Source: a bacterium
Lineage (GTDB): Bacteria; RBG-13-61-14; DATKZS01
Direction: 5' to 3'
Length of the DNA: 64,000 nucleotides
Assembly: GCA_963674965.2 (NCBI GenBank)
Contig: CAXXFL010000001.1
Span: 864,001-928,000 of the forward strand
The notes under the pieces are model-generated. The model did no database searches and was not told the DNA's origin. It saw only the letters and a list, made by a program, of their open reading frames with translations. Position numbers and translations under genes: made by a program. How positions within the stretch are numbered: the stretch's first letter is position 1; every line of letters starts with the position of its first letter. Of this stretch, positions 46,699 to 48,701 are shown piece by piece.

Positions 46699-47770
46699 TT
46701 ACCAGTCAATCGAAATCCCCGGCCCCGGCGCGGCGCCAACCGGACGATAAAACCTCCACCAAGGCGCCGCCCGCGCAAGACCCCCAAAGGCCGATAAAAA
46801 AAGCCGATAGAGACCGACGTCATTGTCGGAGCGGCGGCCGACGAAGCCGTGGGTGATGGAGGAGTTGGCGATGGTGAGGGGGTGGGAGGGCGAGCCGGCG
46901 AAGTCGGCGCCGAAGGGGAGATAGGCGCGGCGCCAGACGGTCTCGCCGTCGGAGTTGGTGGCGACCACCGGGGAGTGGAGGCCGTAGTGGAGGTAGAGCC
47001 GCTGGGAGATATTGACCGAGGCGGCGCCCGAGTCGAGGAGGCACGAGCCCGAGTCGTCAACCACGTCAATGTCGTATGAGCCGGAGCCGGCGTCGTCCCC
47101 GAGGTCTCCCGTGTCCACAAATATATATGTCGCGCCCTCGGACACGTACGCCTCGATGGCGTAAACCGCGCCCGACCCATTATCGAAGCGCACCGTGTAC
47201 GTCCCCGCGTCCAGCGCCCCCGCCACGGACAGCTTAAGAGTGTCGCCCTCCTCGAGCTCGTCCGCCCAGGTGTCGCCGTCCCCGAGGGTCAGCTCGCCGA
47301 TGGCGCTCTCGGCCAGGAGCCGTAGCCGCGCCGCGTCCAGCTCGGGCGTCGCCGAGTCTCCCTCCCCAGGCCCGCAAAGCTGGGTCGCTCCGTCCATGAC
47401 GGAGGTCACGCCGTCGCACAGCCCGTCGCCGTCGGTGTCCGGATTGAATGGGTTGGTATAGAAATACCCCGAGTTCAGGTATTCCTCGAGATTGGTCCTC
47501 CCGTCCCCGTCGGGGTCATCGGCCGCGTCGTCCACCAGCGGGTCCAGCCCGGCGATGACCTCCCAATAATCGTCGATCCCGTCCCCGTCCGAGTCGGCCA
47601 ACAGCGGGTCGGTCCCCAGCCTCGCCTCGATAATGGCCGCCATCCCGTCCCCGTCGAAATCCGCCACCGCCGTATCGCACTCCACCACCACCGGATCGAA
47701 CCCAAGGCTATCGGCATACTCCACCTCCCACCCGTCCGTGAAGCCGTCGAAATCGGAATCGGCGGAAGTA
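46699..47770 (-). pseudogene. Fragment of an RHS-associated-core protein with Ca-binding DxDGDG repeats, truncated at both ends
   Basis: DSDGDG/DPDGDG/DTDGDG repeats; YLH..LHSP...T...G..VW...Y.PFG...GFVGRR.D.D.GLY core stops before the ARYYDP/GRF motif; reading frame extends upstream to about 47785 without a start. Confidence 0.7.
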
Positions 47771-48476
47771 ATAGAAGTTAGTTTTCAAAGATCGGAGTTA
47801 AATCTATATCGACAACCTAAGCATAGGTGATCCCCGGTAAATCAATCGCAATGACCTGCTCGCTATGCTCGCCCATATAGCGGAGCTATATGGGTTACTT
47901 ATATTTCAAGACCCTTTTGTGGGTTACCTGTTAAATCTATATCGACAACCAAAGCATAGGTCATCCCCGGGAAACCAATCTCTATGGCCTGCTCGCAAGG
48001 CTCGACCATATAGCAGAGATATTTTGGTTACTATTATTTCAAGGCCCTTTTGTGGGTTACCTGTTGACCTCCCAATAATCGTCGATCCCGTCCCCATCCG
48101 AGTCGGCCAACAGCGGGTCGGTCCCCAGCCTCGCCTCGATAATGGCCGCCATCCCGTCGCCGTCATAATCCGCCACCGCCTCATCGCACTCCACCACCAC
48201 CGGATCGAACCCAAGGCTATCCGCGTACTCCACCTCCCACCCGTCCGTGAAGCCGTCGAAGTCGGAATCGGCGGAAGGAATAATGAAAAGTTTTCAAAGA
48301 GCAAAGTTACATCGATATCGACAACCAAAGCATAGGTCATCCCCGGTAATTTAATCTCAATGACCTGCTCGCTATGCTCGCCCATATAGCGGAGCTATAT
48401 GGGTTACTTATATTTCAAGACCCTTTTGTGGGTTACCTGTTACTTATATTTAAGACCCTTTTATGGGTTACCTGTT
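47557..48476. repeat. Array of GTT-bounded segments: three 133-bp units, a 240-bp duplicated gene fragment and a 35-bp partial unit
   Basis: Units 47800-47932, 47933-48065, 48309-48441; partial 48442-48476; 47557-47796 repeated at 48066-48305. Confidence 0.9.
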
Positions 48477-48701
48477 GAACTCGGAAAGACCCCCCTCCGC
48501 GAACTCCTCCATCCTCGAGTCGATCAAGTCCCCGTCAATGCCGGTTACCGGCTTTAAATTGATTTTTTGGTCGGCGGAACTTATTGCGCCGTGAAAGAGA
48601 TAACTTGATATGACGAAGGCCGCTAATATCGGAGCCGCCCTCAATCCAGGTCTAGGCAAGATGATGTGCCCCGGAAAGGAGCGTATGAATTTTTGTCTCA
48701 T
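48468..48701 (-). pseudogene. 5' part of a probable exported protein, truncated at the repeat
   Basis: Signal-peptide-like hydrophobic stretch, GGGAG RBS; stop codon is supplied by the repeat terminus (AAC AGG TAA). Confidence 0.5.

What the first reader, a model, noticed from the sequence alone, without database searches (positions are those of the whole stretch)
47557..48480. Array of variable-length segments with one fixed end, all joined at GTT: footprint of a possible capture/recombination system
Seen: GTT junctions at 47930, 48063, 48439 and 48474 are each preceded by the same terminus (CCCTTTTRTGGGTTACCT-G). The segments between them are 133, 376 and 35 bp long and are nested pieces of one template (Ca-repeat gene fragment, boxA-like motif, 133-bp unit). 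Each starts at a position that is GTT in the template (GAT in copy A at 47554). The copies are diverged: the middle unit has many substitutions, and the 240-bp copies differ mostly at synonymous sites. This is therefore not a fresh tandem duplication. Knowledge: integron integrases cross over at G^TT and use secondary GTT sites. Two of the four junctions (GTTAAAT, GTTGAAC) fit GTTRRRY. HUH rolling-circle elements also give one fixed and one variable end. Inference: a fixed att-like site repeatedly acquired DNA excised from paralogous loci elsewhere in the genome. No recombinase is encoded in this window.
Basis: partly seen in the sequence, partly recalled or inferred. Interest (0 to 1): 0.8.

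Follow-up and report, generated by a model that had tools for sequence, protein, structure and literature searches.

The report
Decayed toxin cassette with repeat-end rearrangements
This is a broken leftover of a bacterial toxin-cassette family whose upstream spacer ends in a small palindromic repeat element, and the end of that element has repeatedly been rejoined to other DNA, which looks like an integron but is not one.

Summary
Four copies of one terminus (…CCCTTTTRTGGGTTACCT+GTT) bound nested segments of 133, 376 and 35 bp.

The context changes the reading. Window 46808-47770 (minus strand) is a toxin-less remnant of an "orphan" module of a polymorphic-toxin family. The genome has three 3255-3323-aa main genes and about 18 orphan toxin/immunity modules on contigs C2 and C6.

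The 133-bp unit is the spacer upstream of long orphans. It holds a boxA-like motif. Its distal ~100 nt are one arm of a REPIN/MITE-like palindromic repeat with 60 genomic copies, 56 of them intergenic, also found in one related genus. GTT is that element's own last trinucleotide.

The same terminus is the fixed endpoint of other non-homologous joints, including one to an internal point of an unrelated IS.

No integron integrase, attC-like fold, GTTRRRY rule or cassette-precise exchange was found.

Most likely the repeat-element end is break-prone and drives adjacent duplications and deletions. Whether an enzyme or a replication stall makes the break is unknown. Moderate interest.

The parts
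46808..47770 (-). Conserved pre-toxin region of a 'long orphan' module of a polymorphic-toxin family (bacterial TSP3 Ca-binding repeats, ending ...[14 protein letters not shown]). It is truncated at 46808, so no toxin tip and no immunity gene follow. The frame is open from 47783 with no ATG; the listed ORF is 46699-47724.
   Evidence: 88-99.7% DNA identity to 14 other copies on C2 and C6. Pfam TSP3_bac, E 1.4e-8. 12 of 12 intact orphans continue QLGARWYDPDLGRF.S.DP...NNP + variable tip where the window copy breaks off. A 0-difference unitig bridges 46808.
47771..47796 (-). Leader of the orphan, copy A, with a boxA-like motif (47780-47795; 13 of 16 nt match the rRNA-leader motif).
   Evidence: family D7; alignment of 11 orphan leaders.
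47797..47929 (+). Unit 1 (133 bp): about 30 nt specific to the toxin leader plus about 100 nt of the REPIN/MITE-like arm, ending in the fixed terminus. The phase is ambiguous by 3 nt because the unit both starts with and is followed by GTT.
47853..47898 (+). Core of the repeat element in unit 1: GACCTGCTCGC..., then a perfect 10-bp hairpin (CCCATATAGC GGA GCTATATGGG), then TTAC. The same core lies at 48362-48407 in unit 3. A decayed copy lies at 47986-48031 in unit 2.
   Evidence: nhmmer finds 60 copies genome-wide. The core occurs in G001 with compensatory changes in the stem. Fold.
47930..48062 (+). Unit 2 (133 bp), the most decayed copy, with a broken hairpin. Its nearest relatives are the units of C2:99027-99161 and C6:733977-734110 (89.6%).
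48063..48305 (-). Copy B: the first about 215 bp of the conserved coding region, cut off at ...DYWEV and closed by the terminus (AAC AGG TAA reads N R stop), plus the leader. The leader's boxA-like 16-mer at 48289-48304 is identical to the rRNA-leader motif.
   Evidence: D1, D7; ORF 48057-48233.
48306..48438 (+). Unit 3 (133 bp), 94.9% identical to unit 1.
48439..48473 (+). 35-bp repeat of the unit's terminal part. The same extra terminal copy (37 bp, sharing the derived TATG) exists at C2:98990-99027, so this duplication predates the split of the two loci.
   Evidence: Bridged by a 0-difference unitig.
48468..48701 (-). 77-aa ORF with no family match. Its last codons and stop (E F N R stop) run into the terminus. 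It is unique in the genome.
46363..46378 (-). boxA-like motif in the leader of the genome's only rRNA operon. The 16S gene is at 44699-46260 (minus strand). Promoter-like sites lie at 46579-46552 and 46434-46406.
   Evidence: (D7).
48726..49784 (-). Leucine-rich-repeat protein gene, low G+C (37-42%), lying upstream of the array in gene orientation. Context only.
49913..51151 (+). ISL3-family DDE transposase gene. Context only; its ends are unrelated to the terminus.

Best explanation
The locus is a dead remnant of an orphan toxin module, not a capture platform.

Shown:
- The gene on the minus strand belongs to a polymorphic-toxin family. The family consists of giant TSP3-repeat proteins with exchangeable C-terminal nuclease-type tips, each followed by immunity genes and arrays of start-less orphan modules.
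- Long orphans are preceded by a conserved non-coding leader with a boxA-like motif.
- That leader ends in one arm of a REPIN/MITE-like palindromic repeat. The arm runs GACCTGCTCGC..., 10-bp hairpin, GGGTTAC..CYGTT.
- GTT is the last trinucleotide of that arm.
- The arm's end is a fixed endpoint of several non-homologous joints in this genome.

Inferred:
- The end of the repeat arm is a preferred break or stall point.
- The broken or stalled 3' end is rejoined with 0-3 nt of microhomology. Joining to sequence upstream gives tandem re-copies of 15, 35-37, 104, 133 and 376 bp. Joining to sequence elsewhere gives deletions, such as the joint to an internal point of an IS.
- This resembles the adjacent rearrangements classically made at a transposon end.
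- Later gene conversion among the roughly 15 paralogous leaders made the copies mosaic and unequally diverged.

Unknown: whether the break is made by an unidentified transposase or nuclease that recognises the arm, or by replication stalling at the hairpin.
For: Family and context:
- Copies of 47300-47760 lie at 14 other places. 3 continue as coding sequence into genes of 3255-3323 aa, and 11 start with the leader.
- The main protein has TSP3_bac repeats and a C-terminal HNH domain. Orphan tips hit Col-Pyo DNase/LHH and PT-TG. Downstream genes hit DUF4265, SUFU, Imm11, DUF4304 and Tdi1_C.
- The motif DNDVGLY(Q/K)LGARWYDPDLGRF is present in 12 of 12 intact orphans. The window copy stops right after GLY.

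Repeat element:
- 60 nhmmer hits, many as inverted pairs about 70 nt apart with roughly 50-bp inverted arms.
- 56 of 60 are intergenic, against about 90% ORF cover of the genome. The terminus often lies 0-40 nt after a stop codon.
- The core is present in 1 of 40 other genomes searched (G001, another genus), with compensatory stem changes and the same GGGTTACCCGTT end.

Fixed end:
- The same terminus abuts at least 8 different flanks.
- Terminal re-copies exist in the window (3 joints), at C2:98990-99039 (37 bp), at C2:90296-90323 (15 bp) and at C1:82666-83027 (104 bp x4).
- At C6:880108|880109 the terminus is joined to an internal point of a 1662-bp IS. The other 26 of 27 copies continue upstream with IS sequence.
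- Partner sites show only 3, 1, 3, 0 and 0 nt of microhomology.

Mosaicism: u2 is nearest to units on C2 and C6, not to its neighbours. Both non-synonymous A/B differences segregate among paralogs.
Against: - No enzyme is linked to the repeat. No Y1 transposase locus is flanked by it. No autonomous element with these inverted arms was found, and no target-site duplication.
- Two of the three window joints do have a perfect GTT at the partner site. By my own estimate, taking 1/64 per site, that is about 7e-4 by chance, so some sequence preference at the variable end is not excluded.
- Several of the listed joints may descend from fewer events, because the loci are paralogous. The 35-bp copy is clearly inherited.
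- The order of divergence does not fit a simple series of local re-copies. The adjacent units u1/u2 are the most different pair. This has to be explained by gene conversion, which is inferred rather than shown.
- The joint at 48063 is not bridged by any listed read contig.
Confidence: 0.6

Rival explanations
1. HUH (Y1-transposase, IS200/IS605- or RAYT-like) single-strand 'peel and paste'. The enzyme cuts after ...GTT a few nt 3' of the hairpin, which gives the fixed right end. It also cuts after GTT-like sites upstream, which gives the variable left ends. It then pastes the excised pieces after another ...GTT, building the nested array.
For: - The geometry fits: a hairpin followed 9 nt later by the fixed end in the short form (GGGTTACCCGTT).
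- Segments are inserted directly after another copy of the terminus.
- 2 of 3 window segments start right after a GTT in the template.
- The genome encodes 6 PF01797 loci, at least 3 with open frames and no internal stop.
- The element shares other REP/REPIN traits: it is intergenic, forms inverted doublets and shows compensatory stem changes.
Against: - None of the 6 PF01797 loci (±1.5 kb) carries the core. The three looked at in detail are flanked by two other repeat families of their own.
- The same holds for the 2 loci of G001.
- Partner sites of 3 of 5 joints lack GTT: GAT/CAC, none and none.
- The joint to the IS interior has ATT at the partner site.
Confidence: 0.15
2. Ordinary slipped-strand or unequal-crossover tandem duplications and deletions, followed by gene conversion within a repeat-rich cassette family. 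No special property of the terminus is involved, and the shared end is inherited from one or two events.
For: - The 35-bp copy is inherited, being shared with C2:98990-99027.
- The arrays are mosaics made by homologous exchange in conserved regions.
- A 205-bp deletion between ACCTCCCA direct repeats in the copy at C2:83803-84068 shows ordinary slippage in the family.
Against: - Three different joints in the window share the identical endpoint to the base.
- Further independent joints at other loci use the same endpoint: the 15-bp copy, the IS-interior joint, and the 104-bp array of a variant arm.
Confidence: 0.15
3. Integron-like or rAID-like site-specific capture. A tyrosine recombinase crosses over at G/TT of an attC-like site in the unit and inserts excised toxin/immunity cassettes.
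For: - Repetitive intergenic sequences lie between toxin/immunity cassettes. The rAID-1 clusters of Bacteroidales are described the same way, as 'reminiscent of integrons' (10.1101/471110, passages read).
- One tyrosine recombinase gene (C6:877904-879157) lies at the distal end of one array.
- 2 of 4 window joints fit GTTRRRY.
Against: - No IntI, and no recombinase in the window.
- The C6 recombinase is convergent with the array and at its far end. The other two array ends have none or only fragments.
- No attC-like fold.
- The bases after GTT are not constrained.
- Shared blocks are not bounded by the GTT.
- The element is mostly found between ordinary genes.
Confidence: 0.05
4. Assembly artefact: a collapsed or chimeric repeat region.
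For: The region consists of multi-copy sequence, and short-read unitigs fragment there. The joint at 48063 is not bridged in the listed pieces.
Against: - Unitigs with 0 differences bridge 46808 and the joints at 48439 and 48474. The joint at 47930 is bridged with 3 differences.
- The copies differ from each other and from all paralogs.
- The genome is in 7 contigs without N.
Confidence: 0.03

Closest known systems
Orphan toxin/immunity modules of polymorphic toxin systems (Rhs, CdiA, MafB types)
   Same: - A full-length gene with a conserved body and an exchangeable C-terminal toxin, followed by an immunity gene.
- Downstream arrays of fragments that keep varying amounts of the conserved part and lack translation starts.
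- IS elements interspersed among them.
This matches the passages of PMC3150448 read; PMC4436062 was seen only in a search listing. Here.
   Different: - The delivery body is a 3255-3323-aa TSP3-repeat protein, not a recognised Rhs or CdiA. No RHS-repeat Pfam hit appears at E<=0.01, although the pre-toxin motif resembles the end of an Rhs core (my recollection of that motif).
- Orphans carry conserved non-coding leaders with a boxA-like motif and, in part, a repeat-element arm.
- The window copy has lost both toxin and immunity gene.
REP/REPIN elements and BIME-like clusters; MITEs
   Same: A short palindromic, intergenic, multi-copy element that often forms inverted doublets, sits just downstream of stop codons, forms tandem clusters, and is a target of an IS110-family IS. 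That IS110-family elements target REPs in other bacteria is my recollection.
   Different: No flanked RAYT gene, no target-site duplication and no autonomous partner were found. The element is known only from this genome, G001 and one further MAG.
Adjacent deletions/duplications and one-ended transposition at transposon ends (IS1, Tn3 family, ISEcp1, IS91; recalled from general knowledge)
   Same: One endpoint is fixed to the base at an element end, and the other is variable with little or no homology. Both re-copies and deletions occur.
   Different: No transposase is assigned and no target duplications are seen. The active agent is inferred only.
Integrons and rAID-1 clusters
   Same: Arrays of cassettes separated by repeated non-coding sequence containing a palindrome, with joints at GTT.
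   Different: There is no IntI or 5' XerD-like recombinase, no attC fold, no RRRY rule and no cassette-precise boundaries.

Membership tests
Integron | intI integrase gene next to the array | tested here: not met
   TIGR02249 scores at best 84 bits against a cut-off of 265 in the whole genome. None of the 12 PF00589 hits lies in the window.
Integron | attC site: R''/L''...L'/R' imperfect inverted repeats folding into a long bulged hairpin, with R' = GTTRRRY | tested here: not met
   Single-stranded DNA folds of both strands give one perfect 10-bp hairpin plus a 4-bp stem. 2 of 4 window joints fit RRRY, and other loci do not. No attC covariance model was available.
Integron | Cassettes exchanged with boundaries exactly at G/TT | tested here: not met
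   Blocks shared by the C2 and C6 arrays start and end in conserved coding regions or elsewhere, for example C2:80620, 84106 and 99198.
rAID-1 (recombinase-associated acquired interbacterial defence) | 5' XerD-like tyrosine recombinase co-directional with the array | tested here: not met
   The only array-adjacent tyrosine recombinase (C6:877904-879157) is distal and convergent. Criteria taken from 10.1101/471110.
rAID-1 (recombinase-associated acquired interbacterial defence) | Repetitive intergenic sequences between cassettes | tested here: met
   Two leader families (long leader ± unit, and 'module X') recur between cassettes.
Polymorphic toxin system with orphan modules | Full-length gene with conserved body, variable C-terminal toxin and downstream immunity gene | tested here: met
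   Three genes of 3255-3323 aa. HNH tip, with DUF4265/SUFU downstream on C2.
Polymorphic toxin system with orphan modules | Start-less fragments sharing the pre-toxin region, each with its own tip and immunity gene | tested here: met
   11 long and 6-7 short orphans. Tips hit Col-Pyo DNase/LHH and PT-TG. Immunity genes hit Imm11, DUF4304 and Tdi1_C. A shared pre-toxin motif is present in 12 of 12.
Polymorphic toxin system with orphan modules | The window copy itself encodes a toxin tip and an immunity gene | tested here: not met
   Homology ends at 46808, right after the GLY codons. An unrelated, terminator-like sequence and the rRNA promoters follow.
Rhs family proper | YD/RHS repeats and the RHS-associated core domain | tested here: inconclusive
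   No RHS Pfam family at E<=0.01 in the 3306-aa protein or the orphans. The motif ...GLYQLGARWYDPDLGRF... resembles the start of the core domain (from recollection). NCBIfam was not scanned.
REP/REPIN | Short palindromic, intergenic, multi-copy, in inverted doublets | tested here: met
   60 copies, 56 intergenic, with doublets about 70 nt apart here and about 40 nt apart in G001.
REP/REPIN | A RAYT (Y1 transposase) gene flanked by the repeats | tested here: not met
   Not found at any of 6 loci in G000 or 2 in G001.
MITE | Terminal inverted repeats, target-site duplication, related autonomous element | tested here: inconclusive
   Inverted arms of about 50 bp are present. No direct target duplication appears at 4 full copies, and no autonomous partner was found.
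IS200/IS605-type (HUH) element | The variable left end is always cut after the same short motif as the target | tested here: not met
   A GTT lies at the partner site in 2 of 5 joints.

The most novel reading that the evidence does not exclude
The conserved end of this hairpin repeat (...GGGTTACCYGTT) is the cleavage-and-joining site of a so far unrecognised enzyme. The enzyme moves or re-copies variable lengths of adjacent DNA and has been recruited into the leaders of orphan toxin modules. There it would serve as a one-ended 'capture' device that builds and reshuffles toxin/immunity arrays. This would be functionally analogous to an integron but mechanistically unrelated.
Probability: 0.12. 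Interest if true: 0.75.

Novelty: new variant of a known kind. Interest (0 to 1): 0.35.

Why it matters
How arrays of orphan toxin/immunity modules are assembled and reshuffled is still described as unknown in the CDI/Rhs literature (PMC3150448, passages read). Here a lineage-specific hairpin repeat sits at the module boundary. Its exact end is the endpoint of several independent non-homologous joints. That makes a concrete, testable candidate for a rearrangement hot spot in such arrays.

The finding also shows that an integron-like footprint (a fixed end, GTT, nested pieces) can arise without any integron machinery. This is a useful caution for sequence-only scans.

The boxA-like motif shared by the rRNA leader and two unrelated orphan-leader families suggests a testable idea. 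Nus-type antitermination may carry transcription across untranslated orphan toxins to their immunity genes.

Tried and rejected
- Rfam (E<=1) over 44000-52000 gave only rRNA and tRNA, nothing in the units.
- The sigma-70 promoter scan found no site inside the units on the gene strand. The hairpin scores as terminator-like only on the + strand, antisense to the toxin gene.
- TnpB-type (PF07282): 0 hits.
- Reverse transcriptases: 3 loci, none near the arrays or the window, so a retro-copy reading of the '5'-truncated, fixed 3' end' pattern has no support.
- Y1 transposases: their flanks carry other repeat families.
- The ISL3 element's ends are unrelated to the terminus.
- A simple 509-bp tandem duplication (spacing of repeat D1) does not reproduce the order of the pieces. 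This is my reasoning.
- A 3-bp target duplication (AAC) flanking a mobile 130-bp unit was rejected. At full elements the AAC/GTT are inverted, so they are part of the arms. Orphans that lack the unit diverge from it at different internal points, 47793, 47803 and 47816.
- Sequencing runs: no RNA holder is listed, and only contigs of one study were available. Nothing can be said about expression, and no long reads were available.
- Earlier findings of the scan: none near.
- Taxonomy via the protein atlas was inconclusive, and the lineage was left unnamed.
- The leader-specific part of the unit was not found in any of the 40 other genomes searched.
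Full report
**1. The observation**

The pattern CCCTTTTRTGGGTTACCT occurs four times in the window, at 47912, 48045, 48421 and 48456. 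Chance expectation is 0.09, and none of 100 shuffles reaches four. Each copy is followed by GTT. The repeat finder gives spacings of 133, 376 and 35 bp. It also finds three copies of a 133-136-bp unit, and a 300-bp repeat 47556-47855 / 48065-48364 at 91%.

Read on the + strand, the region runs in this order:
- conserved gene part A, leader, unit 1;
- unit 2;
- 240 bp of gene part B, leader, unit 3;
- the last 35 bp of the unit;
- unique flank.

Read support comes from short-read unitigs of what is probably the source sample. Contigs with 0 differences bridge the joints at 48439 and 48474 and the left boundary at 46808. The joint at 47930 is bridged with 3 differences. No listed piece bridges the joint at 48063.

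**2. What the gene is**

The coding strand is the minus strand. Window 47300-47760 has 14 further copies, 6 on contig C2 and 8 on C6, at 88-98% identity. The homology extends down to 46808.

- In 3 of the 14 the reading frame continues upstream into genes of 3255, 3306 and 3323 aa.
- In the other 11 the coding homology starts at the same codon and is preceded by a non-coding leader.

The 3306-aa protein has bacterial TSP3 repeats and a C-terminal HNH nuclease domain. Orphan tips hit Col/Pyo-DNase, LHH and PT-TG (these three are marginal: E 2e-4 to 1e-2 and below Pfam's curated cut-offs). The small genes after them hit DUF4265, SUFU, Imm11 (also below its cut-off), DUF4304 and the T6SS immunity protein Tdi1.

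All 12 intact orphans examined share ...GFVGRRxDNDVGLY(Q/K)LGARWYDPDLGRF.S.DP...NNP... followed by unrelated tips. A second, shorter class of orphans starts at the equivalent of window 47263, with a different leader.

This is the architecture of polymorphic toxin loci with orphan modules. The CDI/Rhs paper PMC3150448 describes fragments that lack translation starts, keep varying amounts of the conserved part, and are interspersed with IS elements (passages read).

The window copy breaks off right after the GLY codons at 46808. What follows is unrelated sequence and then the promoters of the only rRNA operon. It has no toxin tip and no immunity gene. It is a remnant.

**3. What the unit is**

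The first ~30 nt of the unit, next to the leader, occur only in the leaders of long orphans. Of the 11 leaders:
- 3 carry the whole unit to the terminus (C2:99027-99161, C6:733977-734110, C6:879974-880108);
- 2 have it interrupted by an IS110-family element or its remnant;
- 5 diverge from it at three different points (equivalents of 47793, 47803 and 47816);
- 1 has a variant.

The distal ~100 nt also occur away from this family, at C4:368095-368200, C5:228413-228516, C5:536719-536820 and C6:880716-880812. The 46-nt core occurs all over the genome. A profile search finds 60 copies.

Many copies are inverted pairs about 70 nt apart that form an element of ~230-260 bp. Its arms read AACGGGTAACCC, hairpin...GGTC on the left and GACC..., hairpin, GGGTTAC(..)CTGTT on the right.

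On a crude ORF map that covers 90% of the genome, 56 of 60 copies are intergenic. The commonest layout puts the terminus 0-40 nt after the stop codon of the preceding gene. In three places the upstream frame closes in the terminus itself, where AAC/AAT AGG TAA reads N R stop.

Only 1 of the 40 other genomes searched has the core. That is G001, same family but another genus. Its stem carries compensatory changes (CACAAAGC/GCTTTGTG, CACGTAGC/GCTACGTG, GCGCAC/GTGCGC), and the end GGGTTACCCGTT is kept. An exact scan of one genome per species found the hairpin plus GGGTTAC in three places of one further MAG.

The element is therefore REP/REPIN- or MITE-like. Membership in either family is not established, because no flanked RAYT gene, no target duplication and no autonomous partner were found.

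GTT on one arm, and AAC on the other, is the terminal trinucleotide of the arms. It belongs to the fixed end.

**4. The integron reading**

- No integron integrase exists in this 97.6%-complete genome. None of its 12 tyrosine recombinases is in the window.
- The single-stranded folds show one perfect 10-bp hairpin and a 4-bp stem. Nothing resembles an attC.
- The bases after GTT are unconstrained.
- Before the start of the 376-bp piece, 0 of 15 family copies have GTT.
- The blocks shared by the C2 and C6 arrays are bounded in conserved coding sequence. That is expected from homologous exchange, not from cassette excision.
- The rAID-1 clusters of Bacteroidales, described as integron-like, are defined by a 5' co-directional XerD-like recombinase (10.1101/471110, passages read). 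That recombinase is not found here.

**5.

The terminus is a special place. Besides the three internal joints in the window, the same end is the endpoint of:
- a 37-bp terminal re-copy at C2:98990-99039, which shares a derived TATG with the window's 35-bp copy and is therefore inherited;
- a 15-bp re-copy at C2:90296-90323;
- a 104-bp x4 array of a variant arm at C1:82666-83027;
- a direct partial second arm at C2:618936-619065.

The most telling case is at C6:880108|880109. There the terminus is joined to an internal position of a 1662-bp rve-type IS. Only the last 289 bp of the IS are present, whereas the other 26 of 27 copies continue with IS sequence. That joint is a deletion whose fixed end is the terminus, and the IS cannot have made it.

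The partner sites have 3, 1, 3, 0 and 0 nt of microhomology. One end fixed to the base with the other arbitrary is the signature of rearrangements made at an element end, or of a fixed break or stall followed by template switching.

I take this as the best explanation (0.6). The agent is open. The rivals are:
- an HUH-type mechanism (0.15), which has the right geometry but no linked enzyme;
- plain slippage plus inheritance (0.15);
- integron-like capture (0.05);
- misassembly (0.03).

**6. Divergence**

u1 and u3 are 94.9% identical. u2 is 87% identical to both and nearest to units on C2 and C6. Parts A and B differ at 16 of 228 nt. Both amino-acid differences between them are variants that segregate among the paralogs. 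The array is old and has exchanged sequence with paralogs. The order of events cannot be reconstructed.

**7. Verdict**

The object is a decayed orphan toxin module. The interesting residue is a lineage-specific hairpin repeat whose exact end is a rearrangement hot spot at toxin-module boundaries. Interest is moderate (0.35).

Noticed in passing
window 46363-46378, 47780-47795, 48289-48304; G000 C2 and C6 arrays: The 16-mer at the rRNA leader's boxA-like motif (minus strand TTGCTCTTTGAAAACT) is identical in orphan leader B and 13/16 in leader A. Genome-wide, [GT][CT]TCTTTGAAAA occurs 32 times. 17 of these are in toxin-module leaders of two unrelated leader families (9 long, 8 short) and 1 is in the single rRNA leader. 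Idea: Nus-type antitermination across untranslated orphans. That boxA works this way upstream of CRISPR arrays is my recollection; the search listing did not show that paper.
   Followed up: partly
G000 C2:7687-8841, C2:619214-620368, C6:741718-742872; remnant near C2:90330-90400: An IS110-family element (384 aa; PF01548 + PF02371) sits inside the repeat core, between GCTATGT and GGGTTAC, at three places. A ~62-nt left-end remnant lies in a fourth. This indicates sequence-specific targeting of the repeat.
   Followed up: partly
G000 C6:880108-880395: The unit's terminus is joined to an internal point of a 1662-bp rve-type IS that has about 26 copies. Only the last 289 bp of the IS are present.
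   Followed up: yes
G000 C1:82666-83027: A tandem array of four 104-bp units. Each holds a variant of the hairpin repeat and ends in ...CCGCCGTT.
   Followed up: partly
G000 C6:733128-733456, C6:879127-879453, C2:101779-102107: All three toxin arrays end in an orphan truncated at the same point (equivalent of window 47173), followed by the same ~220 bp. The C6:879 kb end is followed by a tyrosine integrase gene (877904-879157). The C6:733 kb end is followed by a serine-recombinase fragment and an rve transposase.
   Followed up: partly
window 51230-51475: Remnant of a Y1-transposase (RAYT-like) element. Fuller copies (e.g. C7:626019-626733) are bordered by a different repeat (…GTATGCTGTCCCCAGATCT…). 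A second RAYT at C1:1589639-1589980 has yet another flanking repeat family.
   Followed up: partly
G000 C2:83803-84068: One orphan has a 205-bp in-frame-region deletion between two ACCTCCCA direct repeats. Its left edge coincides with the start of the window's 240-bp fragment B (GACCTCCCAATAATC).
   Followed up: no
window 44699-46579: The genome's only rRNA operon (one 16S copy in 6.5 Mb) has two promoter-like sites (TTGACA-16-TATATT and TTGACA-17-TAAACT) ahead of the boxA-like motif. The toxin remnant abuts this control region.
   Followed up: partly
window 48726-49784: A leucine-rich-repeat protein gene of 37-42% G+C in a 55-68% G+C neighbourhood. It lies where an immunity or foreign gene would sit upstream of the orphan.
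   Followed up: no
G000 C2:88455-88679 and 14 other places: A second conserved inter-cassette module ('module X', ~225 bp, with hairpins ACGGTTTT..AAAACCGT and GTCTCGC..GCGAGAC) precedes short orphans. It also occurs at other toxin loci (C1:1339-1346 kb, C1:1460-1465 kb, C5:413 kb, C5:556 kb).
   Followed up: partly
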